From positions 53,245 to 117,244 of the forward strand of contig NMRA01000818.1 in NCBI GenBank assembly GCA_002633005.1: a stretch of DNA of 64,000 nt, given 5' to 3'. Source of the stretch: Phoronis australis. Lineage: Eukaryota > Animalia > Phoronida. Below the pieces are notes generated by a model. It had not been told where the DNA came from. It searched no databases and worked only from the letters and a program-made list of their open reading frames with translations. The translations under genes and the position numbers were made by a program. How positions within the stretch are numbered: the stretch's first letter is position 1; every line of letters starts with the position of its first letter. Shown piece by piece: positions 751-28,424 of the stretch.

Positions 751-1746
751 CTGGAGTACAGTGTACTTCTCAACCTTCTTTCTGTAAGCAGATCGAAGGG
801 ATTCATACGAATCATCCCACACAATGGTTGGATCTATGACAAGAGCGTGGCGTTGGTGGTTAACGGCCACAATGTCTGGTACTAGCGTTGACTCCTGTCC
901 GTTGTCGTTCAGAACTGTGATGTGGGGTTCCACCTGGTAATGCATCACCTTAGATTTGAGGAATTGCACCACCCTCCATACAATTCTGTTCTTCCGACCT
1001 ATTCTGTTGGCTTTGACAGTGACACGCCCCAAGAATGTGACCCAGTGTCTCAACTGTCCTATGACAGCGTCGACACCAGGAATCCCAGTTCGGTCGGCCT
1101 CTGTTAATCGCCTCGCATGTCGGATACGTGTTAGATCTTGTTCTGAACGCACCGATAACTTCACCTTCACTGAAAAACGAATAGCCGCAAAGCCATTTGT
1201 TACTCTCCGGGCCGAAGAGGTCGGCCCCCTTGCTCTGACAGCCCAATGCTGTCCACTTCTTCAGTTCAGATGATCGCCAGTTCCTACCAAGCCTGTCATC
1301 GCCATTAGCATATTTACCTTCAAGATCCTTCACCTTCTCGGAAAGCTTAGTCCGAAGACAAACAGCCACCGATAACGGATCAGTTTCTTTCAGGAGCGCA
1401 CGGTATCTTCCGAGGATCAAAAGAGGGACCTGGTAGCCGAAGCACTATAAGCCGAGCCCTCCTCTCTTCTTTGAAATGTAGAAGAAGGAATTGTTGATGC
1501 TATCGCTCAACTTCAGCCATGTCCTAACCCAGAACTGTACTTCTTTGTCTAGCTCACTGAGGACACCAACCGCAGTATGACCCGTGCTAAGCTGGTGGAA
1601 TAACTTAAGGCAGACATAGTCTGTCAAGATGGTCACACGTTGAGTGGGCTTAAGTCCTCGAAATGAATGCAAGTTGTTACCATGACGCCGAAGGCACTCA
1701 ATAGGATTGCTCACCACAGTTCCTCTCCATGGATCGAATCTGCTCC
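751..1746 (-). mobile_element. R2 retrotransposon 3' fragment (thumb, CCHC knuckle, RLE endonuclease), frameshifted
   Basis: Split ORFs encode GGLGL, CRRCHRTVETLGHILGAC, PDIVAV...VIDPTIVWD and KKVEKY. It closely matches ~17583-18582. Confidence 0.92.
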
Positions 1747-4330
1747 GTTTTTGTGCGACACAAAAACGTAGCTACCCTCGCTATTTAAGTGTCGTGTACA
1801 GTCTATAAAATTCAACTGCTCTTCATGAACCTCAACAGGAACAAAGATTGTTGATTTCAGACCTGCGGCTGCCGTTTTATGATGGGATAACTGGAAAAAA
1901 GAATACTATTGAGTTCATTTTGCGCATTTTGCTAAAGTCATACATTCACTGAAATCAGAGTAAAAATATTATATGTTATTGAGTTTAAGTTTCACAACCA
2001 CTAATGTTATGCATTCTCTGAAGGTAGAGTAAAATTATTGCAACAGGTTTCTTCTCAAATACAACTGATAGCATGATTAGCATGGATTTAGGCCTCTTGT
2101 ACTGGCCCTCATTTCGTCGACTACGAGAAAAAACACGTGGTACTTGTATTGATGGCCCACTATGTGACTTGTAGCATTTTGAACACTCTCTATCTCTAGG
2201 TTTGTAATATCGCCTGCTCTTTTGGCATTGGTGACTTGCAAGAAGAGACGGAGAGCATTCCTTCTGTGCACGAGGTTGTGGGAGTTGCGGTGGTCGGAAT
2301 GATAACGGCTATTGATGTACATCTTTACTTGCCATCGTTGGACACCTTGGGGCAGGGAGATTAGGTCGCTGAAAAAGTGATGACGTTTAGTACATGCATC
2401 ATCATTTCAGATGACTAAATTGCCATGCAAAGACCATTTTGTCACTGAGTAAGGTCTATGGCTGAACAGTCGGCATCTGGCCTTTTTGCGACTCTACAAA
2501 GCGTTCAAAGTAAATTTTTGATTCATAGCCTTCAAAAGCTTAGTTATTTAGCAAATGGAAAAAAATCAACTGTAAAATTTCATAGGAAACTATAATTTAT
2601 AGGACACTGTTTCATGTGAAACTGGTCTTACCTTTTCATTTTCTCGGTCTGTACATCCTTTGTTAGACTGACAGCGCAGTTTTTGATATAGCCATATATT
2701 CCTTTTATGTCGCCAACTCTTACATTGAGATGGCGCAGCCACCGGGGACTGTTCTAAGAAAATTCTAAGAACTTTTGGGTGTAGTGTAGATAAATCTTGA
2801 TGGTTTCTGAGCTAAAATACAAAAGGTTTATCAGGGTGTAAAATTCAAATTAGGATTCACTGTCTGAACCTTCATTACCTGTTGCAGTTTATTATGTCAC
2901 CAAATGTAAAATAAACAGAACTATTGTTCATCAAGACTAAAACATAGCTTAACTTATTTGTGACTTGACTGAGAAAATTGTTTGGTAAATTTGATGACTT
3001 ACGTCTTTCCATTCTCTTGCATTATCTCAATTGTGGCTCCTGGTTTACCTATGGCGTCGAGGGCCATCAAACCCTCCTTCGAAAACTGCCGCACAATGGC
3101 GTTTATCCCGCTCCGGTGGGCGGCCATTGTCTTTTCTCCCCGTCTTTGCCCTAACGATCCACGGTTTTTTAAGTCGCCACTGAAAGAATCGACCAGTTTT
3201 TGATATCAAAGAAAGTACAACCTTTTGATCAACAGACTCAGTTATCAAATATTTTGAATGTTGTCATTGATGTTTGATATAAGGTTTAATCATTGGCTGT
3301 CTGGATGGTTAAACATAAGCCGTTAGGTTGTCAACTACTCACACGTAGTCCTCCAAGACTTTCGAAAAACTGTCCATTTCCATGGTCACGGGGGCCAGCA
3401 CAGCTCTCTTGAGCATGTTCGTATATTCCGGTGTCCCCTTTTTCAAGCCATGCTTGGCTTGAAGGTGCTGATCCACTCTGGTTGTTACCGTTGTGCAACC
3501 AGCAAAAGGACACACATGCCTTTTGGTGCTCGACTTTGGTAGCTTTTTTTGGTATACACTACCATGGACAGCTTCGACGTGGCGCTTTAGGTTCACGACC
3601 ATTGCGCCACACTCCTGGCACTGCCTTTGTTTTCTTTTTGTTTTTTTGTCAGGCACAGGTTCCTTTAAAAGAAATGAAATACATCGTGATTAAATTTCTT
3701 ACTCTGAAATTTTTGTGACCATTCACAAATTCTTGTCAATGTCTTAACATGCATGGCTTTCACTTAAAGGCGTCCTGAAATGTTATGTTTTAACAAATTT
3801 TTACTTTTTGTATGGCTTTAGTTTTAACTTACTGGTTCAGATTCAGACGATGGAAAGTCTGTTGGTTGTGAAGATAGCTGCAAACAGAAAAGCATTTAAT
3901 TTGGTGAGAGCCAGTTTAGTACAACTTCATATGTCGTGTTACATTTGTATGACATTTTAGTAACTTTAAACGTAACTTTTCGTAGTCTGAAATGTAACAT
4001 TTCAAGTATTATTGTATTGAAGGGAGGTAGCTTTTTCGTAAAGTGTTAATTTGATCCAGATGATATGTTTCACTAAATCCAAATGATTCTGAGAAAAGAC
4101 TGACTGCTTTACAAATATTTCCATCAATGGTTTCATTAATAAGGCTTTTTTTCAAGAATAGACATCAAAGATTAAAAAAAAGGATTAGGTTGAGATCAAT
4201 AAATTGTTTCTGTTTTTCGTTGTAATATCGGTGATATGTCTTTGAATTTTACTAATGAACCCCATCTCAACTTTTTCATTTCTTTCTTACCTCATTTGAG
4301 TCTGGGGTGTATTCATCGCCTGACGAGCAA
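1745..4330 (-). pseudogene. Intron-containing C2H2-ZF + tyrosine recombinase (Crypton-like) gene, copy A, truncated
   Basis: Phase-consistent GT-AG exons: 3877-3833, 3662-3343 (CQEC..HVEAVH; CPFAGC..HLQAKH), 3179-3003, 2811-2632 (one TAG), 2368-2137 (NAKRAGDITNL, catalytic-Arg-like box), 1890-1745 (HHKT, catalytic-Lys-like). Cut off by a junction to R2. Confidence 0.72.
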
Positions 4331-5827
4331 ATTTCGGGGCTTGATGGGCACCACTAGAATTTAAAGAGATGTGGTTCTTCAAAAATGTCTAAACCAACTT
4401 GCAATGTTTTTAGTTTGCACAATAAACACACTTACATAGATGTTATGTCTAATATTAAAACTTGCATTTAATTTGGAATGTGTCAACTATAATTGATGTC
4501 TGGTTTAGACATGGCCGTGGTATATGGGACTCAGAATCACAAATAAAAATTAGTTGTAAGGACTACATAAATTGTGTTTGATAATTTCGATGATATATCT
4601 GTGTGTTGAGTTACACTGAGACGGCATAATGAGATTCAACAAGCTGAAAACCATACATTTTGAATGACTGGTTTCAAAGCCAGAGGAGACAGGATACTTG
4701 GTCCAGCAGCAGGTGATGGCTCGTTGACTGGAGGGTCCTCACTGTGTGGCTATAATGAAAACACAATATATGTTAGACTGACTTCCTAGCAGCGCCCCCT
4801 TTCTGAAGACAAGCCAGCGTATGCTCGGTTCGCTTCCTCTCCACATCAGCCCTTGCTCTAGCTATTGTCCCCTCATTACGGAGAATAGGGTGCCTGTGCC
4901 GTTCATGTTGGCTAAGGCCAGTCCTAGAAGGACAAGAGAAGGGGTATGCGGAGCACTTGAATCGTCCTGGAATTGCTAGATTGTCAATCGGTCCTTTGCA
5001 CTTTGCGTAGAGACAAGGATAGTCAATTTTGCATTTGCCGCATTTACTCTGTGTTACTATGGCGTATCCTCAAATGTTTGTGTAGTGGCATGGGGCTCAA
5101 GAAAAATTCTAAGCACTGAGGGCAATCGAATCTATTGCCAGGATACATGGCTGTACTGCCGCCAGAAACCACCTGATTACCAAGAGGGTCCTCGACAAGA
5201 TCCACATCCTCCCCTCCATTTAGGGGCACTACGTTAAGAGGGCCCTCAGCGGGTGTTTCTTGGACTCTCCCTGCCAAATGACGGGAATCGGTGACGTGCT
5301 CTGCTGATGCTTCGGTTACACTTGATGTAGAGGGTACCACACTGGTATCACGCGTAGCTCGCACTTGAGAGGCCCCAGATGAGTTGGACCACTCATCGGT
5401 AATACAAAGTAGAGAGTTTGAACCTTATGGCACCAACTGTACTCTCATCAACAGTTAGTGTTGCACCACATGCAGAGTTACCACAGTCCCCATGGGAAGG
5501 ACATGAGGTTGCCAATGACCATGGATTTTGATGGCTTACGCCAGTTCCAAAACTGGAGTGCTCAGCTATACACTCCCACGGGTTTGCCAGTTCAGTCTGA
5601 GGTTCCTGAACATAGCCAGGGAGTTCTCGGCTATTCTCCCTCACCCCACCTTGAGACGGCCCCCGATGTGTAACAAGGGTCGTCAGGCGCCTGGGTTCCC
5701 CATTGTTTATGTTAATATTCTTGTCCATGGCAGTCGGTTGTAGGTTAAGTTAACGTCTAAACCTAAGGAAAGACGGCCCCTTGTCTAAGACATTCCGTTA
5801 TTGGATATGCCGTCGACAAGCAGCGTT

Positions 5828-5996
5828 GTGGTTTGGCTCCTTAGCAAAGTATCACGTCCACTATATTCCTGTCGGGCAGATCAATAACTATAACCGACTA
5901 TCTAAAGTAGTCAGTTATAACAGAATATACAGTACACGGGTCACCTACCCAACTCTTGCCACAAGGAGGCGACCAAATACCACCATTAAGAGAGTC
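5828..5996 (-). ncRNA. HDV-like self-cleaving ribozyme of R2 5' end (P4 type A)
   Basis: Minus strand: P1 GACUCUC..AAGAGUU; P2 UUUGGU..GCCAAA; P3/L3 GCC-UCCUUGU-GGC; P1.1 GG; long P4; J4/2 CUAA. This is the same order as known R2 ribozymes. Confidence 0.82.
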
Positions 5997-6005
5997 ATAG
6001 ATACT
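5986..6005 (-). other. 20-bp 28S rDNA remnant at R2 5' junction (also 13035-13054, 14446-14465, 21396-21415, 28405-28424)
   Basis: AGTATCTATGACTCTCTTAA matches 19/20 to the conserved 28S sequence AGTAACTATGACTCTCTTAA(GG) immediately upstream of the canonical R2 insertion site. Confidence 0.85.
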
Positions 6006-6019
6006 ATTGCTCTCCGGTG

Positions 6020-7410: not shown

Positions 7411-7413
7411 CAC

Positions 7414-9017: not shown

Positions 9018-12000
9018 GCTAGGTTGCACCAATACGGAACTTCAGCTCTAGGCATCTCTAGGTTTTGAAAAAGAGTGTCATTGTCTTCAAACCATGCTCC
9101 TCTGGCTTCAATCACCACTGGATATATCGCTACAGAGTCAACTCCCAGTCTCTCTTGCAGTATGGGCTGGAGTACAGTGTACTTCTCAACCTTCTTTCTG
9201 TAGGCAGATCGAAGGGATTCATACGAATCATCTCACACAATGGTTGGATCTATAACAAGAGCGTGGCGTTGGTGGTTAACGACCACAATGTCTGGTACTA
9301 GCGTTGACTCCTGTCCATTGTCCTTCAGAACTGTGATGTGGGGTTCCACCTGGTAACGCATCCCCTTAGATTTGAGGAATTGCACCACCCTCCATGCAAT
9401 TCTGTTGTGCCGAGCTATTCTATTGGCTTTCACAGAGTGACACGCCCCAAGAATATGACCCAGTGTCTCAAGTGTCCTATGACAGCGTCAGCACCGGGAA
9501 TCCCGGTTCGGTCGGCCTCTGTTAATCGCCTCGCGTGTCAGATACGTGTTAGTTCTCATTCTCAACGCACCGATAACTTCACCTTCACTGAAAAACGAAT
9601 AGCCGCAAAGCCATTTGTTACTCTCCGGGCCGAAGAGGTCGGCCCCCATACCCTGACAGCCCAATGCTGTCCACTTCTTCTGTTCAGATGATTGCCTGTT
9701 CTTACCAAGCCTGTCATCGCCATCAGCATATTTACCTTCAAGATGCTTCACCTTCTCGGAAAGCTTAGTCCGAAGACAAACGGCCATTGATAACGGATCA
9801 GTTTCTTTCAGGAGCGCACGGTATCTTCCGAGGAGCAAGAGAGGGACCTGTTAGCGGAAGCACAGTAAGCCGAGCCCTCCTTTCTTTGAAACATAGAAGA
9901 AGGAATTGTTGATGCTATCGCTCAACTTTAGCCATGTTCTAACCCAGAACCGTACCTCTTTGTCTAGCTCATTGAGGACACCACCGCAGTATGACCCATG
10001 CGAAGTTGATGAAATAACTTAGGACAGACATAGTCTGTCTAGATGGTCACACGTTGAGTCGGCTTAAGTCCTCGAAATGAATGTAAGTTGTTACCATGAC
10101 GCCAAAGGCGCTCAGGGGCATTGCTCACCACAGTTCCTCTCCAAGTATCAAATCTGCTCCCGAGATATTTCGCAGATTCACCCGGCACCACCCAAGGTAT
10201 GTCGTCCCATTCAGAATGAACAGGGCGCACGAATTGACAATGAAGGAACGTGCATTTCTTTTCAAATTGAAGCCATCGGTCTTCCGCACATTTAACTTCA
10301 TGCCTGTGTCTGCGCAGAACCGCTCAACGATCTTTAAATTCTGCTGCATACCTTTTCGATCATGGGAGATGACACCAGTATCGTCTGCATATGCTAAGGC
10401 GGCGACAGTGTGGCTGTTTGCAGAATACCCTTGCCCTTCTTTTTCCAAAGTACAGATCAGGGGATCCATACAGAGGAGAAAGAGTACCGGTGAAAGCGGA
10501 TCACCTTGTTTAACACCACGCTCCATGGGGATGATGTCGGTTTTCCCCTTTTGTAAACTGAAATATGTCCCACTATTGTGGTACATATCAGCTACAATTT
10601 TTATAAAGTGCGGGTGCACTTTAAGGTGTTCGAGGGCACTGATGAGATGTGCACGCTCGACAGTGTCCAACGCTTTCGCCAAATCCAAGAAGCCATACAA
10701 ATTTCCCCACCGTCAGACTTGACCAGGCGCAGGAGCTGTTCAACCAAGGAAGTGTTTATGGCACAACCCGGTTTACGTATAAAGCCCTTTTGCCGGTCGC
10801 AAAGTGGCACCGCACCCAGAAGTCTTCAAGCAAGAATCTTCGTGTATAGTCTCAATACAATACTCGATATCGTCAGCGGCCTCCAGTTGCCAATGTCATC
10901 CAGGTTCTCGGTACCCTTAGGAAGAAGTATCGATCGCCCAGATTTCAAAGACTCCGGGATAACACCGCTAACGAACCAAGCATTAAGTATCGAAACCAGT
11001 AGTCCTTTCTTGGCAGCCAAGGCCCTCAGGTCGGACGCTTTGATTTTATCAGGTCCCGGCGCGGTAGACGTCCGGAATCCCATAATGGCCCGAGAGATCT
11101 CACGCTCGGTAATGGGAGACATCAATTGCCCATTATCCGCATACCCCATGGGGGGAGCGAAATTACTGAGGTCGACTTCTTTAACAGCGTCAGAGCTACC
11201 AAAACGCATTTTGTATGTGTCATACACTAACGTTGGGTCCAGCGGACAACGACAGTCCCCTTTACCATCAAGGATCTGTCCAGCTAAGGCCTTGCGGTTC
11301 GTATCAAAGAGAGTCTGAACTTTCCGGAAAGAAGCGGCCTTTCCTTTCACTCCAGCCCCCTTTCGCCAGTTTCCAAAGCTCGGTTGTGTTGGTTGCCTCG
11401 ACGTTACTGCTGATGCCAACACGGTGGCATGATCGGCTGCAGTAACTACGTCAGTGAAGCACTTGCAAAAGGTTTCGTATGCGGCAGCCGTAGGTTCCGA
11501 ATCATGAAGATCTTCGCCCAAAGCTACACACAAGTCCCGGATGTTGTCCCTCCAAGCGGCCTCGGAGTTGTCGGGGGGTAACTCAACGTGCAAGATGTCG
11601 GGTGTCCTTTCCTTGACTGTTGGCTCCTTGTCACTTATCACGCCTCTCCTTTTCAGATCGGAGATCTTACTAGAGAGCTGCGTAGATGTTTTTCCTGGCA
11701 AGAGGCCCTGCGCCACAAGAGCTTGACACCAATGTTTCTTGCCTTCTCGCATTGCACGCGAATAGAAGTCCGATAGAATATTGACCTCTTCAACTGACCA
11801 GACTGACTTCCTAGCAGCGCCCCCTTTCTGAAGACGAACCAGCGTACGCTCGGTTCGCTTCCTCTCCACATCAGCCCTTGCTCTAGCTATTCTCCCCTCG
11901 TTACGGAGAACAGGGTGCCTGTGCCGTTCGTGTTGGCTAAGGCCAGTCCTAGAAGGTCAAGAGAAGGGGCATGCGGAGCACTTGAATCGCCCTGGAATTG

Positions 12001-12878
12001 CTAGATTGTCAATCGGTCCTTTGCACTTCGCGTAATGGTGGGCAATGGAGAGACAAGGATAGTCAATTTGGCATTTGCCGCATTTGAGACGATACTCGGT
12101 GTTGCAATGGCGTATCCTCAAATGTTTGTGGAGTGGCATGGGTCTTAAGAAAAACTCTAAGCACTGAGGGCAATCGAATCTGTTGGCAGGATACATGGCT
12201 GTACTGCCGCCAGAAACCACCTGATTACCCACAGGGTCCTCGACAAGATCCACATCCTCCCCTTCGATAAGGGGCACCACGTTGAGGGGGCCCTCATCGG
12301 GTGTGTCTTGGACTCCTCCAGCCAAATGACAGGAATCGGTGACGCGCTCTGCTGATACTTCGGGTACACTTGATGTAGAGGGTACCACACTTGTGTCATG
12401 CGTAGCTCGCACTTGAGAGGCCCCAGATGGGCTGGACCTCTCATCGGTAGTTCGAAATAGAGAGTTTGAACCTCTGGCACCAACTGTACTCTCATCAACA
12501 GTTAGTGTTGCACCGCATGTAATATTACCACAGTCCCCATGGGAAGGACATGTGGTTGCTGACGACCGTGCATTTTGACGGCTTACGCCAGTTCCGAAAC
12601 CGGAGTGCTCAGCTGCACACTCCCACGGGTTCGCCGGTTCAGGTTGAGGTGCCTGAACATAGCCAGAGAGTTCTCGGCTATTCTCCCTCGCCCCACGTTG
12701 AGACGGCCCCCGATTTGTAACAAGGGTCGCCAGGCGCCTGGGTTCCCCATTGATCAATTCTTTATCGGATTCCTCCATGATATACAGGTTATAGGTTTAG
12801 TTAACGTCTAAACCTTAGGAAAGACGGCCCCTTGCCTAGGACATTCCGTTATTGGAGATGCCGTCGACAAGCAGCGTT

Positions 12879-13045
12879 GTGCCTTGGCTCCTTAGCAAAG
12901 TATCACATTCACTATACTCCTGATTGCCAAATCATTATCTAGAACCATCTGTCTACAGTAAATAGATCTAAGGACATACAATACAAGTGTCACCTTTCCA
13001 ACTCTGGACACAAGGAGGCGACCAAATACCACCATTAAGAGAGTC
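12879..13045 (-). ncRNA. HDV-like ribozyme, P4 type B (P3 mismatch)
   Basis: Same topology as 5828-5996. P3/L3 reads GCC-UCCUUGU-GUC, followed by CAGAGUU-GG; J4/2 CUAA. Confidence 0.7.
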
Positions 13046-17385: not shown

Positions 17386-20295
17386 TTACTCTCCCCCCTT
17401 TCCTGTGCTTTGTGGGATAAGGAGCCCCCCCATCGCTAGGTTGCACCAGTACGGAACTTCAGCTGTAGGCATCTCCAGGTTTTGAAGAAGATTGTCACTG
17501 TCTTCAAACCATGCTCCTCTGGCTCCAATCACCACTGGATAAATCGCTACAGAGTCAACTCCCAGTCTCTCTTGCAGTATGGGCTGGAGTACAGTGTACT
17601 TCTCAACCTTCTTTCTGTGGGCAGATCGAAGGGATTCATAAGAATCATCCCACACAATGGTTGGATCTATGACAAGAGCGTGGCGTTGGTGGTTAACGGC
17701 CACAATGTCTGGTACTAGCGTTGACTCCTGTCCGTTGTCGTTCAGAACTGTGATGTGGGGTTCCACCTGGTAACGCATCCCCTTAGACTTGAGGAATTGC
17801 ACCACCCTCCATACAATTCTGTTGTTCCGAGCTATTCTATTGGCTTTCACAGAGTGACACGCCCCAAGAATGTGACTCAGTGTCTCAACTGTCCTATGAC
17901 AGCGTCGGCACCGAGAATCCCGGTTCAGTCGGCCTCTGTTAATCGCCTCGCGTGTCTGATACCTGTTAGTTCTCATTCTCAACGCACCGATAACTTCACC
18001 TTCACTGAAGAACGAATAGCCGCAAAGCCATTTGTTACTTTCCGGGCCGAAGAGATCGGCCCCCTTACCCTGACAGCCCAATGCTGTCCACTTCTTCAGT
18101 TCAGATGATCGCCAGTTCTTACAGAGCCTGTCATCGCCGTAAGCATATTTACCTTCAAGATCCTTCACCTTCTCGGAGAGCTTAGTCCGAAGACAAATGG
18201 CCCCCAATAACGGATCAGTTTCTTTCAGGTGCGCACGGTATCTTCCGAGCAGCAAGAGAGGGACCTTGTAGCGGAAACACGGTAAGCCGAGCCCTCCTTT
18301 CTTCTTTGAAACATAGAAGAAGGAATTGTTGATGCTATCACTCAACTTTAGCCATGTTCTAACCCAGAACCGTACTTCTTTGTCTAGCTCATTGAGGACA
18401 CCAACCGCAGTATGACCCGTGCTAAGTTGATGAAATAACTTGGGGCAGACATAGTCTGTCAAAATGGTCACACGTTGAGTCGGCTTAAGTCCTCGAAATG
18501 AATGTAAGTTGTTACTATGACGCCGAAGGCACTCAGTGGGATTGCTCACCATAGTTCCTCTCCATGGATCGAATCTGCTCCCGGGATTTTTAGCAGATTC
18601 ACCCGGCACTACCCAAGGTATGTCCTCCCCATTCAGAACGAACGGGGCGCACGAATTGTCAGTGAAGGAACGTGGAGTTGATTTCAAATTGAAGCCAACG
18701 CTCTTCCGCACATTCAACTTCATGCCCGTGTCTGCGCAGAACCGCTCAACGATCTTTAAGTTCTGCTGCATACCTTTTCGATCACGGGAGATGACACCAG
18801 TATCGTCTGCATATGCTAAGGCGGCGACAGTGTGGCTGTTTGCAGAATACCCTTGCCCTTCTTTTTCCAAAGTACAGATCAGGGGATCCATACATAGGAG
18901 AAAGAGTACCGGTGAAAGCGGATCACCTTGTTTAACACCACGCTCCATGGGGATGATGTCAGTTTTCCTCTTTTGTAAACTGAAATATGTCCCACTATTG
19001 TGGTACATATCAGCTACAATTTTAATAAAGTGCGGGTGCACTTTAAGGCGTTCGAGGGCACTGATGAGATGTGCACGCTCGACGGTGTCAAACGCTTTCG
19101 CCAAATCCAAGAAGGCCATACAAATTTCCCCACCATCAGACTTGACCAGGCGCAGGAGCTGTTCAACCAAGGAAGTGTTTATGGCACAACCCGGTTTACG
19201 TATGAAGCCCTTTTGCCGGTCGCAAAGTGGCACCGCACCCAGAAGTCTTCTAGCAAGAATCTTCGTATATAGTCTCAATACTATACTCGATATCGTAAGC
19301 GGCCTCCAGTTGCCAATGTCCTCCAGGTTCTCGGTACCCTTAGGAAGGAGTATCGATCGCCCAGATTTCAAAGACTCCGGGATAACACCACTAACGAACC
19401 AAGCATTAAGTATCGAAACCAGTAATCCTTTCTTGGCAGCCAAGGCCCTCAGGTCGGACGCTTTGATGTTATCAGGTCCTGGGGCGGTAGACGTCCGGAA
19501 TCCCATAATGGCCCGAGAGATCTCACGCTCGGTAATGGGAGACATCAATTGCCCATTATCCGCATACCCCATGGGGGGAGCGAAATTACTGAGGTCGACT
19601 TCTTTAACAGCGTCAGAGCTACCAAAACGCATTTTGTATGTGTCATACACTAACGTTGGGTCCAGCGGACAACGACAGTCCCCTTTACCATCAAGGATCT
19701 GTCCAGCTAAGGCCTTGCGGTTCGTATCAAAGAGAGTCTGAACTTTCCGGAAAGAAGCGGCCTTCTTTCCTTTCACTCCAGCCCCCTTTCGCCGGTTCCC
19801 AAAGCTCGGTTGTGTTGGTTGCCTCGAGGTTACTGCTGATGCCAACACGGTGGCATGATCGGCTGCAGTAACTACGTCAGTGAAGCACTTGCAAAAGGTT
19901 TCGTATGCGGCAGCCGTAGGTTCCGAATCATGGAGATCTTCGCCCACAGCTACACACAAGTCCCGGATGTTGTCCCTCCAAGCGGCCTCGGAGTTGTCGG
20001 GGGGTAACTCAACGTGCAAGATGTCGGGTGTCCTTTCCTTGACTGTTGGCTCCTTGTCACTTATCACGCCTCTCCTTTTCAGATCGGAGATCTTACTAGA
20101 GAGCTGCGTAGATGTTTTTCCTGGCAAGAGGCCCTGCGCCACAAGAGCTTGACACCAATGTTTCTTGCCTTCTCGCATTGCACGCAAATAGAAGTCCGAT
20201 AGAATATTGACCTCTTCAACTGACCAGACTGACTTCCTAGCAGCGCCCCCTTTCTGAAGACGAACCAGCGTACGCTCGGTTCGCTTCCTCTCCAC
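17386..20295 (-). CDS. R2 ORF, open part: Myb-like, RT, CCHC, RLE endonuclease (969 aa from GTG)
   Basis: Motifs: WSVEE (Myb), APGPD, NWRPLTI, QKGF, LDLAKAFD, GVKQGDPLSPVLF, AYADD, GGLGL, CRRC..ETLSHILGAC, PD..D, KVEKY, IGARGAW. Not shown to be expressed. Confidence 0.85.
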   Translation of the reverse strand: MERKRTERTLVRLQKGGAARKSVWSVEEVNILSDFYLRAMREGKKHWCQALVAQGLLPGKTSTQLSSKISDLKRRGVISDKEPTVKERTPDILHVELPPDNSEAAWRDNIRDLCVAVGEDLHDSEPTAAAYETFCKCFTDVVTAADHATVLASAVTSRQPTQPSFGNRRKGAGVKGKKAASFRKVQTLFDTNRKALAGQILDGKGDCRCPLDPTLVYDTYKMRFGSSDAVKEVDLSNFAPPMGYADNGQLMSPITEREISRAIMGFRTSTAPGPDNIKASDLRALAAKKGLLVSILNAWFVSGVIPESLKSGRSILLPKGTENLEDIGNWRPLTISSIVLRLYTKILARRLLGAVPLCDRQKGFIRKPGCAINTSLVEQLLRLVKSDGGEICMAFLDLAKAFDTVERAHLISALERLKVHPHFIKIVADMYHNSGTYFSLQKRKTDIIPMERGVKQGDPLSPVLFLLCMDPLICTLEKEGQGYSANSHTVAALAYADDTGVISRDRKGMQQNLKIVERFCADTGMKLNVRKSVGFNLKSTPRSFTDNSCAPFVLNGEDIPWVVPGESAKNPGSRFDPWRGTMVSNPTECLRRHSNNLHSFRGLKPTQRVTILTDYVCPKLFHQLSTGHTAVGVLNELDKEVRFWVRTWLKLSDSINNSFFYVSKKKGGLGLPCFRYKVPLLLLGRYRAHLKETDPLLGAICLRTKLSEKVKDLEGKYAYGDDRLCKNWRSSELKKWTALGCQGKGADLFGPESNKWLCGYSFFSEGEVIGALRMRTNRYQTREAINRGRLNRDSRCRRCHRTVETLSHILGACHSVKANRIARNNRIVWRVVQFLKSKGMRYQVEPHITVLNDNGQESTLVPDIVAVNHQRHALVIDPTIVWDDSYESLRSAHRKKVEKYTVLQPILQERLGVDSVAIYPVVIGARGAWFEDSDNLLQNLEMPTAEVPYWCNLAMGGLLIPQSTGKGGE

Positions 20296-21415
20296 ATCAG
20301 CCCTTGCTCTAGCTATTCTCCCCTTGTTACGGAGAACAGGGTGCCTGTGCCGTTCGTGTTGGCTAAGGCCAGTCCTAGAAGGTCAAGAGAAGGGGCATGC
20401 GGAGCACTTGAATCGCCCTGGAATTGCTAGATTGTCAATCGGTCCTTTGCACTTCGCGTAATGGTGGGCAATGGAGAGACAAGGATAGTCAATTTGGCAT
20501 TTGCCGCATTTGAGACGATACTCGGTGTTGCAATGGCGTATCCTCAAATGTTTGTGGAGTGGCATGGGTCTTAAGAAAAATTCTAAGCACTGAGGGCAAT
20601 CGAATCTGTTGGCAGGATACATGGCTGTACTGCCGCCAGAAACCACCCGATTACCCACAGGGTCCTCGACAAGATTCACATCCTCCCCTTCGTTAAGGGG
20701 CACCACGTTGAGGGGGCCCTCATCGGGTACACTTGATGTAGAGGGTACCACACTGGTATCACGCGTAGCTCGCACTTGAGAGGCCCCAGATGGGCTGGAC
20801 CTCTCATCGGTAATACGAAGTAGAGAGTTTGAACCTCTGGCACCAACTGTACTCTCATCAACAGTTAGTGTTGCACCGCATGTAGAGTTAGCACAGTCCG
20901 CATGGGAAGGACATGTGGTCGCTAACGGCTGTGCATTTTGATGGGTTACGCCAGTTCCGAAACCGGAGTTCTCAGCTGCACACTTTCACGGGTTCGCCGG
21001 TTCAGGTTGAAATGCCTGAACATAGCCAGGGAGTTCTCGACTATTCTCTCTCGCCCCACGTTGAGACGGCCCCCGATGTGTAACAAGGGTTGCCAGGCGC
21101 CTGGGTTCCCCATTGTTCGTGTTAATTTCCTTGTTCATGGCAGTCGGTTGTAGGTTAAGTTAACGTCTAAACCTTAGGAAAGACGGCCCCTTGTCTGAGA
21201 CATTCAGATATTGGAGATGCCGTCGACAAGCAGCATTGTGGATTGGCTCCTTAGCAAAGTATCACGTCCACTATATTCCTGTTGGGCAGATCAATTACTA
21301 TAACCGACTATCTAAAGTAGCCAGTTGCAACAGAATATACAATACAAGTGTCACCTTCCCAACTCTCGACACAAGGAGGCGACCAAATACCACCATTAAG
21401 AGAGTCATAGATACT
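17415..21415 (-). mobile_element. Near-full-length R2 copy (array unit 2)
   Basis: 28S remnant, ribozyme, ZF region with two TGA stops and a ~63-bp deletion, then an open Myb-RT-RLE frame. Confidence 0.95.
21238..21406 (-). ncRNA. HDV-like ribozyme, P4 type A
   Basis: Perfect P1 GACUCUC/GAGAGUU with a G.U pair at the cleavage site; P3 has one mismatch; J4/2 CUAA. Confidence 0.78.
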
Positions 21416-24302
21416 ATTGCTCTCCGGTGACTACTCCTTCACATCATTCTCGTGGGCAAGTCTGCCAACAGTATCTTTGGCATCAATGCTACAGAATAAA
21501 GAGGCACCCTGAGTTTTCTCCATGGAAATAGGGGCTAAGACAGCTGTCTGTGCTTGGTTGTCTCTTCGTTAGCAAATGTTGGTGTCAACCTATGGTCAGA
21601 CAGCAAATGGACTTATGCGCCATTTGTTATTACTTTTTGGTGTCTCTCTGGTATATCGACAATAGTACAGCCACACATTGATAGGTTCCCCATTGTTCTG
21701 TTTCTTGGCATTATTCATGACAGTAAAGGTTTAGGTTAAGTTAACGTCTAAGGCTGGTCTGTCTCAAGCTGCATTGCCTGTTTAAGTTAACGATGTCACG
21801 TAATGTAAAATAAATTGCATTATTTTTTTACCAAGACTAAATTATTTCTTAATTTATTTTTTGAGAGATATTTGTGACTTGACTGAGAAAATGTTACTGT
21901 CAAATTAATGACTTGCGTCTTTCCATTTTCTTGCATCACGATACTATTTTTTCACCAAGAGCAAGATATTGCTTAATTTGGTTTTCATGGCATTTGTGAC
22001 TAACGTGATTGAGAAAATGTCATGGCCAATTTTATAAACTGTCGCATGATCATTTTAATACCGCTGCAATGTGCAGCCATTGCCTGTTCACTGCATTTTT
22101 GTCCTGACAACTCATGTCCTCAAAGTCACCATTGAAAGTAATGATGTATTTCTTGATATCAAAGAAAGAAGATCACATTTTGATCAATGTTCTCTGTTCT
22201 CAAATTTTGTGAATGTTGTCATAGATGGCTTTTCTGATGTAAAATTTCGTTATTTGCTGTCTATGTGGTGTTGAACCAATCTCCATGGAAACTGGTTAGC
22301 ACTGCTCTCTTTAAGACATCAAAGTACTCAATTGTCCGTTTCTCTAGAGCATGCTTGGATTGTAGATGTTGGTCCATCCTCATAGGAACAGTGGTACAAC
22401 TGGTAAAGCCTAATCGTCATAGTCTTCTTCGGTTATGCTTAGTGTTAATTGTTAGCTCAATCATGCTCTTCTCCGCTCAGACTTAGTCTTAAGATGGCCT
22501 CTTTGGAATGTTGCACAAGAATGGATATAGCATTGTCTTGTTCCATCAGGCTTAGGTCTTGGTTTTTAGCTCGGTCTTCATGGTCTTGTTCCATCAGGCT
22601 TAGTGATAATTTTCAACTCATTCATTACTGTCTTCCCCAGCCACAATTAGTCTTGCAGTTTCATAGTGCTTAGTGTGAATTGTTAGCTCAATCGTGCTCT
22701 TCTCCGTTCAGACTTAGTCTTAAGATGTCCTCTTTGGAATGTTGCACATTCCAAGAATGTATATGGCATTGTCTTCTTCTATCAGGCTTAGGTCTTGCTT
22801 TTTAGCTCGGTCTTCATGGTCTTGTTCCATCAGGCTTAGTGATAATTTTCAGCTTATTCATTATTGTCCTCTCCAGCCACAATTAGTCTTGCAATTTCAT
22901 AGTGCTATTGCTCTTCGGTGCTCTTGTCATGATTTATTGTAAGAAAAGGTGTGTACCTTCAGAAAAACAACAAAAGCTTGGTGAAGGAGTTCACATATCT
23001 CCAAGTAACTGCGGGTCTATGCCAGCCACGCAGTATGATGTTGGCCTAAAACAATTGGGCAGAGGTTCCCACATAGTCTGTCAAGATGGTCACACGTTGA
23101 GTCGACTTAAGCCCTCGAAATGAATGCAAGTTGTTACAATGACGCCGAAGGCGCTCAATGGGATTGCTCAGCACAATTCCTCTCCAAGGATCGAATCTGC
23201 TCCCAAGATTTTTAGCAGATTCACCCGGCGCCACCCAAGGTATGTCCTCCCCATTCAGAACGAACGGGGCGCACGAATTGACATAGAAGGAACGTGGAGT
23301 TGATTTCAGATTGAAGCCAACGCTCTTCCGCACATTCAACTTCATTCAAAAATTAGTCGTAAGGACTACATAAATTGTGTTTGATAATTTCGATGATACA
23401 TCTGTGTGTTTAATTACACTGAGACGGCATAATGGGATTCAACAAGCTGAAAATCATACATTTTGAACGACTGGTTTCCAAGCCAGAGGAGACAGGATAC
23501 TTGGTCCAGCGGCAGGTGATGGCTCGTTGACTGGAGGGTCCTCACTGTGTGGCTAAAATGAAAACACAATATATGTTAGCCATATCATTACAATGCACCT
23601 CACAACTCAGTGAAGCACAAAATAGTGACCGTTGGACACTTGATTTGGCTCTTTTAATTGTAGGCAAATAAGTATAGCAACTAATGTTTCTTACTGAATT
23701 AGGAGAAAAGAGTGATGTAACATAGGAGTTCCTAATCTATCCACATTACCTGGCTGAACTCTTCAAAAGTGTTGTCCACTCCTAGCAACCGTTGGTCAGT
23801 GTCATAGCTGTCAATATGTGGCTGAAATGATTAAATGGTTTGCTAGTTATTAAATAGTGCGGTGGCAGGCTTGTCCAAATTATGTATTCTTAAACCGAAT
23901 CATGTTGTTAATGAATGCCCCTTGATTTTGGATATAGTGATCTCAAAGCGAAACTTTTTTTCTGACAGCAATGTCAAAAATCTTAAATGTGCAACTTACC
24001 ACATTTGTCCTTGTCCAAATACTCTGTATCTTCCTCTCTGAATTCATAGACATCCACGTCTGCCTTCTAAAATACGTTCTCACTTTTCAGTTACTCTAGA
24101 GTGAAACATTGTTTATTGTAATACCAAATGGAAATCTTTATATCCAGGTTTGGCCGTCATGTTTCCTCGATTATGTTACCTAAATTTGAAACAGATTTGG
24201 CCCGTTCAACTTGATGATCACAAAGTTAAGAATCCAATTGAACTGCACTCATTTAAACAGCCAATTGGACTGCACTCATTTAATCAGCCAATTGGACTGC
24301 AC

Positions 24303-27242
24303 TCATTTATTAAACCAATTGACAAAGAATTTCTTACTCTCCCCCCTTTCCTGTGCTTTGTGGGATAAGGAGCCCCCCATCGCTAGGTTGCACCAGTACG
24401 GAACTTCAGCTGTAGGCATCTCCAGGTTTTGAAGAAGATTGTCACTGTCTTCAAACCATGCTCCTCTGGCTCCAATCACCACTGGATAAATCGCTACAGA
24501 GTCAACTCCCAGTCTCTCTTGCAGTATGGGCTGGAGTACAGTGTACTTCTCAACCTTCTTTCTGTGGGCAGATCGAAGGGATTCATAAGAATCATCCCAC
24601 ACAATGGTTGGATCTATGACAAGAGCGTGGCGTTGGTGGTTAACGGCCACAATGTCTGGTACTAGCGTTGACTCCTGTCCGTTGTCGTTCAGAACTGTGA
24701 TGTGGGGTTCCACCTGGTAACGCATCCCCTTAGACTTGAGGAATTGCACCACCCTCCATACAATTCTGTTGTTCCGAGCTATTCTATTGGCTTTCACAGA
24801 GTGACACGCCCCAAGAATGTGACTCAGTGTCTCAACTGTCCTATGACAGCGTCGGCACCGAGAATCCCGGTTCAGTCGGCCTCTGTTAATCGCCTCGCGT
24901 GTCTGATACCTGTTAGTTCTCATTCTCAACGCACCGATAACTTCACCTTCACTGAAGAACGAATAGCCGCAAAGCCATTTGTTACTTTCCGGGCCGAAGA
25001 GATCGGCCCCCTTACCCTGACAGCCCAATGCTGTCCACTTCTTCAGTTCAGATGATCGCCAGTTCTTACAGAGCCTGTCATCGCCGTAAGCATATTTACC
25101 TTCAAGATCCTTCACCTTCTCGGAGAGCTTAGTCCGAAGACAAATGGCCCCCAATAACGGATCAGTTTCTTTCAGGTGCGCACGGTATCTTCCGAGCAGC
25201 AAGAGAGGGACCTTGTAGCGGAAACACGGTAAGCCGAGCCCTCCTTTCTTCTTTGAAACATAGAAGAAGGAATTGTTGATGCTATCACTCAACTTTAGCC
25301 ATGTTCTAACCCAGAACCGTACTTCTTTGTCTAGCTCATTGAGGACACCAACCGCAGTATGACCCGTGCTAAGTTGATGAAATAACTTGGGGCAGACATA
25401 GTCTGTCAAAATGGTCACACGTTGAGTCGGCTTAAGTCCTCGAAATGAATGTAAGTTGTTACTATGACGCCGAAGACACTCAGTGGGATTGCTCACCATA
25501 GTTCCTCTCCATGGATCGAATCTGCTCCCGGGATTTTTAGCAGATTCACCCGGCACTACCCAAGGTATGTCCTCCCCATTCAGAACGAACGGGGCGCACG
25601 AATTGTCAGTGAAGGAACGTGGAGTTGATTTCAAATTGAAGCCAACGCTCTTCCGCACATTCAACTTCATGCCCGTGTCTGCGCAGAACCGCTCAACGAT
25701 CTTTAAGTTCTGCTGCATACCTTTTCGATCACGGGAGATGACACCAGTATCGTCTGCATATGCTAAGGCGGCGACAGTGTGGCTGTTTGCAGAATACCCT
25801 TGCCCTTCTTTTTCCAAAGTACAGATCAGGGGATCCATACATAGGAGAAAGAGTACCGGTGAAAGCGGATCACCTTGTTTAACACCACGCTCCATGGGGA
25901 TGATGTCAGTTTTCCTCTTTTGTAAACTGAAATATGTCCCACTATTGTGGTACATATCAGCTACAATTTTAATAAAGTGCGGGTGCACTTTAAGGCGTTC
26001 GAGGGCACTGATGAGATGTGCACGCTCGACGGTGTCAAACGCTTTCGCCAAATCCAAGAAGGCCATACAAATTTCCCCACCATCAGACTTGACCAGGCGC
26101 AGGAGCTGTTCAACCAAGGAAGTGTTTATGGCACAACCCGGTTTACGTATGAAGCCCTTTTGCCGGTCGCAAAGTGGCACCGCACCCAGAAGTCTTCTAG
26201 CAAGAATCTTCGTATATAGTCTCAATACTATACTCGATATCGTAAGCGGCCTCCAGTTGCCAATGTCCTCCAGGTTCTCGGTACCCTTAGGAAGGAGTAT
26301 CGATCGCCCAGATTTCAAAGACTCCGGGATAACACCACTAACGAACCAAGCATTAAGTATCGAAACCAGTAATCCTTTCTTGGCAGCCAAGGCCCTCAGG
26401 TCGGACGCTTTGATGTTATCAGGTCCTGGGGCGGTAGACGTCCGGAATCCCATAATGGCCCGAGAGATCTCACGCTCGGTAATGGGAGACATCAATTGCC
26501 CATTATCCGCATACCCCATGGGGGGAGCGAAATTACTGAGGTCGACTTCTTTAACAGCGTCAGAGCTACCAAAACGCATTTTGTATGTGTCATACACTAA
26601 CGTTGGGTCCAGCGGACAACGACAGTCCCCTTTACCATCAAGGATCTGTCCAGCTAAGGCCTTGCGGTTCGTATCAAAGAGAGTCTGAACTTTCCGGAAA
26701 GAAGCGGCCTTCTTTCCTTTCACTCCAGCCCCCTTTCGCCGGTTCCCAAAGCTCGGTTGTGTTGGTTGCCTCGAGGTTACTGCTGATGCCAACACGGTGG
26801 CATGATCGGCTGCAGTAACTACGTCAGTGAAGCACTTGCAAAAGGTTTCGTATGCGGCAGCCGTAGGTTCCGAATCATGAAGATCTTCGCCCACAGCTAC
26901 ACACAAGTCCCGGATGTTGTCCCTCCAAGCGGCCTCGGAGTTGTCGGGGGGTAACTCAACGTGCAAGATGTCGGGTGTCCTTTCCTTGACTGTTGGCTCC
27001 TTGTCACTTATCACGCCTCTCCTTTTCAGATCGGAGATCTTACTAGAGAGCTGCGTAGATGTTTTTCCTGGCAAGAGGCCCTGCGCCACAAGAGCTTGAC
27101 ACCAATGTTTCTTGCCTTCTCGCATTGCACGCGAATAGAAGTCCGATAGAATATTGACCTCTTCAACTGACCAGACTGACTTCCTAGCAGCGCCCCCTTT
27201 CTGAAGACGAACCAGCGTACGCTCGGTTCGCTTCCTCTCCAC
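24303..27242 (-). CDS. R2 ORF, open part: Myb-like, RT, CCHC, RLE endonuclease (979 aa from GTG)
   Basis: Same motifs as 17386-20295. The C-terminus after NLAMGG differs between the two copies by a G-run frameshift and reads into flanking DNA. Confidence 0.85.
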   Translation of the reverse strand: MERKRTERTLVRLQKGGAARKSVWSVEEVNILSDFYSRAMREGKKHWCQALVAQGLLPGKTSTQLSSKISDLKRRGVISDKEPTVKERTPDILHVELPPDNSEAAWRDNIRDLCVAVGEDLHDSEPTAAAYETFCKCFTDVVTAADHATVLASAVTSRQPTQPSFGNRRKGAGVKGKKAASFRKVQTLFDTNRKALAGQILDGKGDCRCPLDPTLVYDTYKMRFGSSDAVKEVDLSNFAPPMGYADNGQLMSPITEREISRAIMGFRTSTAPGPDNIKASDLRALAAKKGLLVSILNAWFVSGVIPESLKSGRSILLPKGTENLEDIGNWRPLTISSIVLRLYTKILARRLLGAVPLCDRQKGFIRKPGCAINTSLVEQLLRLVKSDGGEICMAFLDLAKAFDTVERAHLISALERLKVHPHFIKIVADMYHNSGTYFSLQKRKTDIIPMERGVKQGDPLSPVLFLLCMDPLICTLEKEGQGYSANSHTVAALAYADDTGVISRDRKGMQQNLKIVERFCADTGMKLNVRKSVGFNLKSTPRSFTDNSCAPFVLNGEDIPWVVPGESAKNPGSRFDPWRGTMVSNPTECLRRHSNNLHSFRGLKPTQRVTILTDYVCPKLFHQLSTGHTAVGVLNELDKEVRFWVRTWLKLSDSINNSFFYVSKKKGGLGLPCFRYKVPLLLLGRYRAHLKETDPLLGAICLRTKLSEKVKDLEGKYAYGDDRLCKNWRSSELKKWTALGCQGKGADLFGPESNKWLCGYSFFSEGEVIGALRMRTNRYQTREAINRGRLNRDSRCRRCHRTVETLSHILGACHSVKANRIARNNRIVWRVVQFLKSKGMRYQVEPHITVLNDNGQESTLVPDIVAVNHQRHALVIDPTIVWDDSYESLRSAHRKKVEKYTVLQPILQERLGVDSVAIYPVVIGARGAWFEDSDNLLQNLEMPTAEVPYWCNLAMGGSLSHKAQERGESKKFFVNWFNK

Positions 27243-28424
27243 ATCAGCCCTTGCTCTAGCTATTCTCCCCTCGTTACGGAGAATAGGGTGCCTGTGCCGT
27301 TCGTGTTGGCTAAGGCCAGTCCTAGAAGGTCAAGAGAAGGGGCATGCGGAGCACTTGAATCGCCCTGGAATTGCTAGATTGTCAATCGGTCCTTTGCACT
27401 TCGCGTAATGGTGGGCAATGGAGAGACAAGGATAGTCAATTTGGCATTTGCCGCATTTGAGACGATACTCGGTGTTGCAATGGCGTATCCTCAAATGTTT
27501 GTGGAGTGGCATGGGTCTTAAGAAAAATTCTAAGCACTGAGGGCAATCGAATCTGTTGGCAGGATACATGGCTGTACTGCCGCCAGAAACCACCTGATTA
27601 CCCACAGGGTCCTCGACAAGATCCACATCCTCCCCTTCGTTAAGGGGCACCACGTTGAGGGGGCCCTCATCGGGTGTGTCTTGGACTCCTCCAGCCAAAT
27701 GACAGGAATCGGTGACGCGCTCTGCTGATACTTCGGGTACACTTGATGTGGAGGGTACCACACTGGTATCACGCGTAGCTCGCACTTGAGAGGCCCCAGA
27801 TGGGCTGGACCTCTCATCGGTAGTTCGAAGTAGAGAGTTTGAACCTCTGGCACCAACTGTACTCTCATCAACAGTTAGTGTTGCACCGCATGCAGAATTA
27901 CCACAGTCCCCATGGGAAGGACATGTGGTTGGTGACGACCGTGCATTTTGATGGCTGACGCCAGTTCCGAAACCGGAGTGCTCAGCTGCACACTTTCACG
28001 GGTTCGCCGGTTCAGGTTGAGGTGCCTGAACATAGCCAGGGAGTTCTCGGCTATTCTCCCTCGCCCCACGTTGAGACGGCCCCCGATTTGTAACAAAGGT
28101 CGCCAGGCACCTGGGTTCCCCATTGTTCGTCTTATTGGTACGTTCCATATCCGATAGGTTGTAGGGTAAGTTAACGTCTAAACCTTAGGAAAGACGGCCC
28201 CTTTCCTAAGACATTCCGTTATTGGAGATGCCGTCGACAAGCAGCGTTGTGCCTTGGCTCCTTAGCAAAGTATCACATCCACTATACTCCTTATTGCCAA
28301 ATCATTATCTAGAACCATCTGTCTACAGTAAATAGTTCTAAGGACATACAATACAAGTGTCACCTTCCCAACTCTGGCCACAAGGAGGCGACCAAATACC
28401 ACCATTAAGAGAGTCATAGATACT
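24362..28424 (-). mobile_element. Near-full-length R2 copy (array unit 3)
   Basis: Same organisation as unit 2. The RT-RLE region is almost identical to unit 2. Confidence 0.95.
28249..28415 (-). ncRNA. HDV-like ribozyme, P4 type B
   Basis: GACUCUC / UUUGGUC / GCC-UCCUUGU-GGC / CAGAGUU / GG / P4 AAGGUGACAC..GUGAUACUUU / CUAA / GAGCCAA. Confidence 0.82.

What the first reader, a model, noticed from the sequence alone, without database searches (positions are those of the whole stretch)
751..28424. rDNA-specific R2 retrotransposon amplified outside rDNA inside a tyrosine-recombinase-gene unit
Seen: three near-full R2 copies in ~7 kb tandem units. Each has the same 20-bp 28S remnant at the 5' end, no downstream 28S (TAGCCAAATG.. 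not found), the same 3' truncation after NLAMGG, and spacers built from exons/introns of a ZF-recombinase gene. Known: R2 normally inserts only at this 28S site, and tyrosine-recombinase elements such as Crypton are thought to move via DNA circles, which can give head-to-tail arrays. Inference: one R2 was captured by a recombinase element, and the composite was then amplified at the DNA level rather than by retrotransposition. This could be an R2 reservoir or a hitch-hiking route out of rDNA.
Basis: partly seen in the sequence, partly recalled or inferred. Interest (0 to 1): 0.85.

Follow-up and report, generated by a model that had tools for sequence, protein, structure and literature searches.

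The report
Stray R2 array in recombinase-gene debris
Broken copies of an R2 retrotransposon sit outside their usual ribosomal-RNA-gene site, in a short tandem array interleaved with scraps of a likely recombinase gene, likely because R2 inserted off-target and ordinary duplication and recombination then multiplied it rather than a recombinase carrying it.

Summary
Three near-full A-clade R2 copies lie head to tail in ~7-kb units. Five 5′ ends carry a 19/20 match to the 28S upstream target, and no downstream 28S is present. The interpretation needs changing. (1) The 28S remnant forms the P1 strand of a predicted HDV-like R2 ribozyme, so it is an ordinary R2 RNA leader, not DNA taken from rDNA. 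(2) An R2-free version of the host exon exists in the window and in reads, and it shares ACTATGA with 28S, which points to off-target insertion. (3) The repeated spacer holds only 5′ exons of the recombinase-like gene, none of its catalytic exons, and shows no element ends. (4) The copies are broken, and they are mosaics of two or more once-functional R2 variants (17 of 24 RT-core differences are synonymous). 'One dead R2 amplified' is therefore incomplete. Best reading: ectopic insertion, then unequal exchange and deletion, with patches from active variants, some perhaps stitched in by the assembler. Extra-rDNA R2 arrays are known in Drosophila. An R2 lineage retargeted to this exon is not excluded (~15%).

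The parts
24366..28424 (-). R2 copy c3: 5′ end complete, stop in ZF1, open frame of 986 codons to the truncation, natural 3′ end missing
17418..21415 (-). R2 copy c2: 7 substitutions from c3 over 3.3 kb, but 5′ 692 bp only 90% identical (ribozyme P4 type II)
9018..13054 (-). R2 copy c1: frameshifts and 5 further stops; RT core from a different functional variant than c3; 310-bp insertion near its 3′ end (8709-9017)
14039..14465 (-). R2 5′ end cN beside the N at 14038; probably an allelic overlap of c1
4775..6005 (-). R2 5′ fragment c0 (P4 type II, no ZF1 stop), joined to a recombinase-gene intron
751..1746 (-). R2 internal 3′ fragment between a recombinase K-exon and exon 2 of another paralog
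28405..28424 (-). 28S-like 20-mer (19/20); also ends at 21415, 14465, 13054 and 6005
   Evidence: against the L001 flank and 28S-derived sequences printed in PMC3774820
28254..28415 (-). Predicted HDV-like ribozyme whose P1 5′ strand is the 28S-derived GACUCUC (predicted cut at -13)
23346..24365 (-). Spacer part 1: 5′ exons and introns of the recombinase-like gene, spliced in RNA
23071..23345 (-). 275-bp internal R2 fragment in each spacer (also 16118-16392, 7412-7686)
22436..22911 (-). Two 236-bp repeats that begin with the downstream half of the host exon into which R2 is inserted
21752..22435 (-). Degenerate ZF exon, exon 2 and intron of a diverged recombinase-like paralog (66-74% to YR-A/YR-B)
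21684..21751 (-). ~70-bp old R2 5′ piece (77-83% to the R2 copies)
21416..21683 (-). Degenerate ZF-exon piece plus the upstream half of the host exon, up to the R2 5′ junction
1747..4545 (-). Recombinase-like gene copy YR-A′ (ZF, exon 2, R exon, K exon), cut off by an R2 junction
53245..56150 (+). Recombinase-like gene copy YR-A: ZF exon, KRAGDI, HHKT and a degenerate box II; frames broken
50778..52229 (+). Recombinase-like paralog YR-B (80% to YR-A), joined to R2 at 52229
52230..53244 (+). R2 internal fragment of a third variant, between YR-B and YR-A, in a block inverted relative to the array
29447..29944 (-). Further small R2/recombinase-gene chimeras (86-bp R2 piece; ORF-start piece joined to the 236-bp repeat; repeated near 36540)
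30293..31272 (-). Older recombinase-like paralog fragments (YR-D, 72-77% to YR-A)
45554..45705 (+). Diverged R2-free paralog of the host exon (both halves contiguous)

Best explanation
An A-clade R2 retrotransposon likely inserted off-target into an exon of a multi-copy, intron-containing gene that is likely a tyrosine recombinase, carrying its normal 28S-derived ribozyme leader, and the locus was then likely multiplied and scrambled by unequal exchange and short-homology deletions. Shown: the tandem units; the shared stop and truncation; the ribozyme-compatible pairing; an R2-free host exon; about 14 co-oriented R2/host junctions; mosaic copies. Inferred: the insertion route; the host gene's identity; repeated patching of the stray copies from functional R2 variants located elsewhere (probably in 28S) by gene conversion or cDNA recombination. 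Part of the mosaic may have been made by the assembler.
For: The 28S 7-mer pairs as P1 with the R2 strand. P1.1, P2, P3 and a long P4 can all be drawn, with 91.5% of cells paired versus 37-45% for slid controls (structure drawn from these same sequences). Leaders of 9-36 nt, including a cut at -13, are normal for R2 (PMC3774820). The R2-free host exon is seen in the window (45554-45705) and as a joint in runs X3, X5 and X6, and it contains ACTATGA, as 28S does. No R2 piece in the window has the natural 3′ end, and all pieces are co-oriented with host-gene pieces, with 0-4 nt of junction homology read by eye. This fits deletions in a head-to-tail array, not separate TPRT events. Catalytic exons are absent from the unit. 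A functional-type R2 is expressed in the species: 8 of 8 RNA reads at 24773 keep the His that is invariant in 20 homologs, and 3 X6 reads carry the intact C-terminus. Sense R2 reads fall to zero in the bins upstream of the 5′ junction. The nearest relative with a readable flank, L001, sits in 28S on both sides. Precedent: extra-rDNA R2 copies in five Drosophila species and an R1/R2 tandem array outside rDNA (PMC2718515).
Against: Several imports of functional R2 sequence are required. c1 versus c3, RT core: 17 synonymous, 6 nonsynonymous, 1 stop, P 1e-5 (window chosen after viewing; the Pfam RT span gives 12/7/1, P 0.002). The 52-kb fragment: 18/18/2, P 0.007. Two P4 types, 16-19% apart, share the same non-rDNA junction while their flanks differ by only 4.5-10%. 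Repeated ectopic conversion is not a commonly shown route (own knowledge). A parental copy in 28S was not seen; the read tool drops human-like reads, so rDNA junctions may be invisible to it. The R2-free host exons seen are only ~75% identical, so they are not the direct pre-insertion allele.
Confidence: 0.6

Rival explanations
1. This R2 lineage has been retargeted from 28S to the host exon of the recombinase-like repeat family. It inserted there repeatedly as several active variants, and the array is the debris.
For: Two ribozyme P4 types, with 3 double-sided pair changes, share one non-rDNA 5′ junction. At least three functional variants are joined to at least three host paralogs. The occupied flank matches 28S at 19 of 20 positions, of which only the last 11 would be RNA-borne if the cut is at -13.
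Against: No R2 3′ end joined to the host's downstream half was seen in the window or among the joints listed. All five occupied flanks share one derived chimeric history. The pair-change control is weak: 81 of 500 shuffles reach 3 pairs. The nearest flank-readable relative is in 28S.
Confidence: 0.15
2. The array is real but short, and most of the mosaicism and c2/c3 near-identity come from short-read assembly stitching together unitigs of different genomic R2 copies.
For: Three single-N joins have duplicated flanks 2.7-4.7% apart. c2 and c3 differ at 7 sites in 3.3 kb while their spacers differ by 4.5% or more. Several c2/c3 letters in the 3′ part are absent from all RNA reads and from X3 contigs. 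No contig spans a unit.
Against: Units differ by 4.5-10% in their flanks, more than the allelic overlaps do. c2 and c3 lie in one N-free stretch. Spacer and chimeric junctions occur in independent runs. The first P4 type-II site lies ~80 nt from the junction, within read range.
Confidence: 0.13
3. One reading: a Crypton-like recombinase element captured one R2 and amplified the composite through DNA circles.
For: The host is plausibly a YR-clan, multi-copy coding family: Atlas leads for two exons point to DUF3504, DUF3435 and Phage_integrase, and third-position changes dominate between paralogs (15/8/29). One R2/host block is inverted 21 kb away.
Against: The unit lacks the catalytic exons. 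No ends or terminal direct repeats could be defined. More than one R2 variant is present. R2-core depth in X3 is only ~5-6 times that of single-junction contigs (266 versus 44-53; the tool warns that this is no copy number).
Confidence: 0.07
4. Unit-length RNAs cut out by successive ribozymes are reverse-transcribed back into the array, making a self-propagating retro-satellite.
For: Each unit begins with a predicted ribozyme, and sense transcripts with spliced spacer exons exist.
Against: Units retain introns that are spliced in RNA. They lack the R2 3′ UTR and share a ZF1 stop. Only 1 of 5 copies has a full P1 and 2 of 5 have a full P3. No sense reads cover 21700-22954.
Confidence: 0.03

Closest known systems
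A-clade R2 non-LTR retrotransposons (PDB 9NL2, 9NL3, 9DOU)
   Same: Three ZFs, Myb, RT and RLE. HDV-like 5′ ribozyme using upstream 28S as P1. 5′ junction ending ...CTCTTAA, as in L001.
   Different: Here outside 28S, in an exon of another gene; 3′-truncated, with a ZF1 stop.
Extra-rDNA R1/R2 copies and the R1-R2 fusion array of Drosophila simulans (Stage and Eickbush 2009, PMC2718515)
   Same: R-element copies outside rDNA, often incomplete. Full-length R1 copies carry 7-28 bp of upstream 28S and frequently lie in repeats. A tandem array outside rDNA is reported.
   Different: Those R2 copies were 1-2% from rDNA copies. Here several variants, 5-20% apart at silent sites, are interwoven with one host gene family.
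R1 satellite of D. melanogaster (McGurk and Barbash 2018, PMC5932611)
   Same: Head-to-tail R-element array expanded by unequal exchange and full of internal deletions.
   Different: R1 units are separated by a 33-nt rDNA duplication. Here they are separated by a 2.95-kb non-rDNA spacer, and the copy number appears low.
Non-specific R2 families R2NS-1_SMed and R2NS-1_CSi (Kojima 2016, PMC5035012); sponge R2-homologous elements (PMC13188248)
   Same: R2-like elements outside 28S.
   Different: Those have many unrelated flanks. Here all five 5′ ends share one flank and a 28S-derived leader.
Crypton tyrosine-recombinase transposons (Kojima and Jurka 2011, PMC3212892)
   Same: Host gene has YR-like motifs and Atlas leads to DUF3504; multi-copy.
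   Different: N-terminal ZF exon, no complete frame, no defined ends; the amplified unit lacks the catalytic half.

Membership tests
R2 (A clade) | Three N-terminal ZFs plus Myb | tested here: met
   Read in the translations; ZF1/Myb align to 9NL2; ZF1 is interrupted by a stop in c1-c3
R2 (A clade) | RT followed by CCHC knuckle and restriction-like endonuclease | tested here: met
   Pfam RVT_1 E 2e-32, zf-RVT below cut-off; alignment to PDB R2 proteins to the C-terminus
R2 (A clade) | Groups with R2 proteins | tested here: met
   Sister to P0001/P0002 (0.998) in a clade that includes 28S-flanked L001 (0.877); rough BLAST-anchored FastTree, 77 taxa
R2 (A clade) | HDV-like 5′ ribozyme | tested here: met
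   Pairing of P1, P1.1, P2, P3 and P4; Rfam gave no ribozyme hit; activity untested
R2 (A clade) | These copies inserted in the 28S site with both flanks | tested here: not met
   Only 20 nt upstream, none downstream
R2 (A clade) | Active members of this family reside in 28S | not testable with these tools
   No genome held; the read tool leaves out human-like reads
Crypton / tyrosine-recombinase element | Tyrosine-recombinase domain with R-K-H-R-H-Y residues | tested here: inconclusive
   Motifs KRAGDI and HHKT plus a degenerate box II, recognised from memory. Atlas named hits 0.75-0.87 to DUF3504, DUF3435, Phage_integrase and NDC10_II. Pfam, PHROGs and HMM searches blank. Fold low-confidence.
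Crypton / tyrosine-recombinase element | The amplified unit encodes the recombinase | tested here: not met
   R and K exons hit only YR-A, A′, B and (R only) D, never the spacers
Crypton / tyrosine-recombinase element | Defined ends (4-6-bp direct repeats in some groups) shared by dispersed copies | not testable with these tools
   No genome; the ends delimited by self-alignment are R2 junctions
Crypton / tyrosine-recombinase element | Circular DNA intermediate | not testable with these tools
   Needs outward PCR or eccDNA data
R1-type double-insertion satellite | Units separated only by an rDNA target duplication | tested here: not met
   2.95-kb host-gene spacer
Non-specific R2 (R2NS) | Copies with intact 3′ ends in unrelated flanks | tested here: inconclusive
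   No intact 3′ end in the window; only 30 letters of the loose end are shown

The most novel reading that the evidence does not exclude
An A-clade R2 lineage has switched its target from 28S to a 28S-like site in an exon of a tyrosine-recombinase repeat family. It keeps a ribozyme that depends on the 28S-like strand and uses the host's tandem copies as a substitute rDNA array: natural R2 retargeting to another mobile element.
Probability: 0.15. Interest if true: 0.75.

Novelty: new variant of a known kind. Interest (0 to 1): 0.38.

Why it matters
As best explained, the locus is a natural record of an R2 off-target site and of how a stray retrotransposon becomes a satellite-like mosaic. That is modestly useful, because A-clade R2 proteins are being used for gene insertion and their off-target rules matter. 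It would matter more if the lineage were truly retargeted. Only R8, R9 and a few non-specific families are reported to have left the canonical site (PMC5035012, passages), and a switch to a site in another mobile element would give a natural test of how ZF/Myb recognition changes.

Tried and rejected
No whole genome is held, so dispersal and element ends could not be tested. No single-copy depth baseline was obtained, so copy number is only relative. Rfam: no hits in the window, no ribozyme hit at the c2 5′ end, and no LSU hit in L001 1-700. The 28S identity therefore rests on sequences printed in PMC3774820 and on L001's flanks. Recombinase exons: no significant hit in Pfam (6 pieces), PHROGs (6 pieces), two word-index protein searches or viral contigs. 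The 1.84-billion-protein HMM search returned only 3 repeat-like hits on short stretches. The AlphaFold model of the R exon had pLDDT 54, and its fold search gave best Z 5.1 with no recombinase: uninformative. The run search listed no RNA holder. Earlier-findings look-ups returned nothing. The thumb/RLE part of c1 versus c3 shows no synonymous excess (24/49/4, P 0.27), nor do codons 1-299, and c0 is borderline (P 0.07). One search used hand-entered counts that were wrong (19 of 27); one search replaces it. A 16-bp direct repeat flanking R2 plus 1.45 kb was considered as a target duplication with 3′ transduction. It was left open, because the same site is also joined to other upstream sequences. 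Literature searches found no report of R2 inside Crypton/YR elements; the library omits most subscription papers, and supplements were not read.
Full report
Scope. No genome is held for this window. The evidence comes from the window, from one read lay over 21700-29200 on four runs of the same species label (runs), from homologs and from papers.

The R2. Self-alignment shows three near-full copies on the minus strand (c1 9018-13054, c2 17418-21415, c3 24366-28424) and many fragments. The protein has three ZFs, Myb, RT (Pfam E 2e-32) and an RLE. It matches solved R2 proteins best (9NL2 E 6e-138). In a rough tree it groups with R2s that include L001, which has 28S on both sides. c1-c3 share a stop in ZF1. 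They end at 24366 or its equivalent, nine codons short of the natural stop seen as a loose end in X3 (1 contig) and X6 (3 reads). c3 also has changes at positions invariant in 20 of 20 homologs (e.g. P809, H853), and c2 is nearly identical there. These copies are unlikely to encode a working protein (inference).

The 28S remnant. A 20-mer from L001's flank matches at 19/20 in five places and nowhere else better than 15/20; no downstream 28S is present. Seven of those bases pair with the R2 strand as P1 of an HDV-like fold, with P1.1, P2, P3, a long P4 and GCUAA before P2. 91.5% of 259 cells pair, against 37-45% for slid partners. The structure was drawn from these sequences, so this control is favourable to it, and Rfam did not detect it. 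Eickbush et al. 2013 (PMC3774820; parts 1-4 of 7 read) show that many R2 ribozymes cut 9-36 nt upstream in 28S, including at -13, and that some 5′ ends carry 21-26-bp 28S duplicates with substitutions. The remnant is thus what an R2 RNA normally brings with it and is not evidence of DNA capture from rDNA.

The insertion site. The sequence upstream of R2 and the start of the 236-bp repeat are two halves of one exon-like stretch. They are contiguous, without R2, in a ~75%-identical paralog at 45554-45705 and in a joint seen in X3 (depth 106), X5 (2 reads) and X6 (2 reads). The empty site contains ACTATGA, as 28S does at this point. Off-target insertion guided by this likeness is inferred.

The host gene. 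Copies YR-A (53245-56150), A′ (1747-4545), B (50778-52229) and fragments C-E are 66-90% alike. Third-position changes dominate between A and B (15/8/29), as for a once-coding multi-copy family. The recombinase call rests on recalled motifs (KRAGDI, HHKT, degenerate box II) and on Atlas leads. The R exon is nearest to unnamed, mostly mollusc clusters (0.94-0.97), with DUF3435 and DUF3504 at 0.85-0.86. The K exon's named hits are DUF3504, DUF3435, Phage_integrase and NDC10_II at 0.75-0.87. Profile and fold searches were blank. The 2.95-kb spacer holds 5′ exons (spliced at GT..AG in X1, X5 and X6), ZF-exon and exon-2 pieces, and two R2 scraps, but neither catalytic exon. The amplified unit therefore cannot encode the recombinase.

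How the array formed. I count about 14 distinct R2/non-R2 junctions in the window and three more in contigs. All R2 pieces are co-oriented with the neighbouring host-gene pieces, even in the inverted block at 50-56 kb. None keeps the natural 3′ end, introns are retained, and junction homology is 0-4 nt by eye. This fits deletions and unequal exchange in a head-to-tail array (inference). Unit flanks differ by 4.5-10%, except c1/cN at 2.5%. The single Ns at 14038, 28795 and 35898 have duplicated flanks 2.7-4.7% apart and are probably allelic contig overlaps, so cN is likely not a separate copy. In X3 the R2 core has depth 266 and single-junction contigs 44-53, which hints at few copies; the tool warns that this is no copy number, and no single-copy baseline was obtained.

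Evidence that complicates a single capture. c1 and c3 differ in the RT core by 17 synonymous, 6 nonsynonymous and 1 stop change, against a neutral synonymous share of ~0.275 (estimated from spacer substitutions; P 1e-5, or 0.002 for the Pfam span). The 52-kb and 751 fragments also show synonymous excess (P 0.007 and 0.005), whereas the c1/c3 3′ part does not (P 0.27). Two ribozyme P4 types differ by 16-19%, with 3 double-sided pair changes (81 of 500 shuffles reach this; 2 of 500 for cells), yet they share the same junction. The flank and P4 groupings also disagree. Sequence from at least two or three functional R2 variants therefore entered this locus. The routes are conversion from active copies elsewhere, repeated insertion at the same site, or assembler stitching; c2 and c3 differ at only 7 sites in 3.3 kb.

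RNA. Depth is low (a few reads deep in ~1.7 billion letters per run). Two spliced reads set the strand convention. On that basis R2 is read in sense, the bins upstream of its 5′ junction are not, and the spacer is read mostly antisense. RNA reads keep His853 (8 of 8) and include the intact C-terminus, which suggests a functional parent elsewhere. A 28S junction could not be checked because human-like reads are dropped.

Comparison with known cases. Stage and Eickbush 2009 (PMC2718515, passages) report non-28S R2 copies in five Drosophila species, an R1-R2 fusion tandem array outside rDNA, and ectopic R1s carrying 7-28 bp of upstream 28S, often in repeats. McGurk and Barbash 2018 (PMC5932611, passages) describe an R1 satellite expanded by unequal exchange with many deletions. 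Non-specific R2 families are described in PMC5035012 (passages), PMC13188248 (passages and section 5) and PMC7650587 (abstract). Crypton circles are a proposal by analogy (PMC3212892, passages). PMC10257491 and PMC11331408 (passages) added little. No supplements were read. My searches found no report of R2 within YR elements.

Verdict. This is a real feature and a new variant of a known kind: an ectopic, decaying R2 array whose repeated, multi-variant interweaving with one recombinase-like family is unusual. Recombinase-driven hitch-hiking is unlikely (~7%). Natural retargeting remains open (~15%). Interest 0.38.

Noticed in passing
window 237-680 (-): 147-codon frame with a CxxC...CxxC N-terminus that resembles a Merlin/IS1595-type transposase (recalled); no Pfam hit.
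   Followed up: partly
window 8709-9017: 310-bp insertion near the 3′ end of R2 copy c1, flanked by a 5-bp direct repeat; single copy in the window.
   Followed up: partly
window 32889-33162 and 47045-47143: Near-perfect 129-bp palindrome (98%), with a related half-copy at 47 kb.
   Followed up: no
window 47137-47915: MITE-like element with 60-bp inverted ends, 97% complementary.
   Followed up: no
window 39699-40248: 34-bp inverted repeats around a stretch resembling the start of a PIF/Harbinger nuclease (recalled).
   Followed up: no
window 59034-59103 (+): Isolated old R2 fragment, 76% identical, outside the array.
   Followed up: no
window 21700-24200: Spacer reads in two RNA runs are almost all antisense to the R2/host-gene strand; this could be a piRNA-source-like transcript.
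   Followed up: partly
window 33154-35897 and 36715-39149: A ~2.5-kb duplicated block across the N at 35898, 94-96% identical; probably an allelic overlap.
   Followed up: partly
L002 1852 and 5111; L006 2320 and 6572; L009 114-140: Other R2 loci carry internal or duplicated copies of 28S target pieces, showing that such duplicates are common at R2 ends.
   Followed up: no
P0014, P0077, P0093: R2-like proteins annotated on large Nucella lapillus contigs (0.7-7 Mb), one fused to PF13843; possibly other extra-rDNA R2 copies.
   Followed up: no
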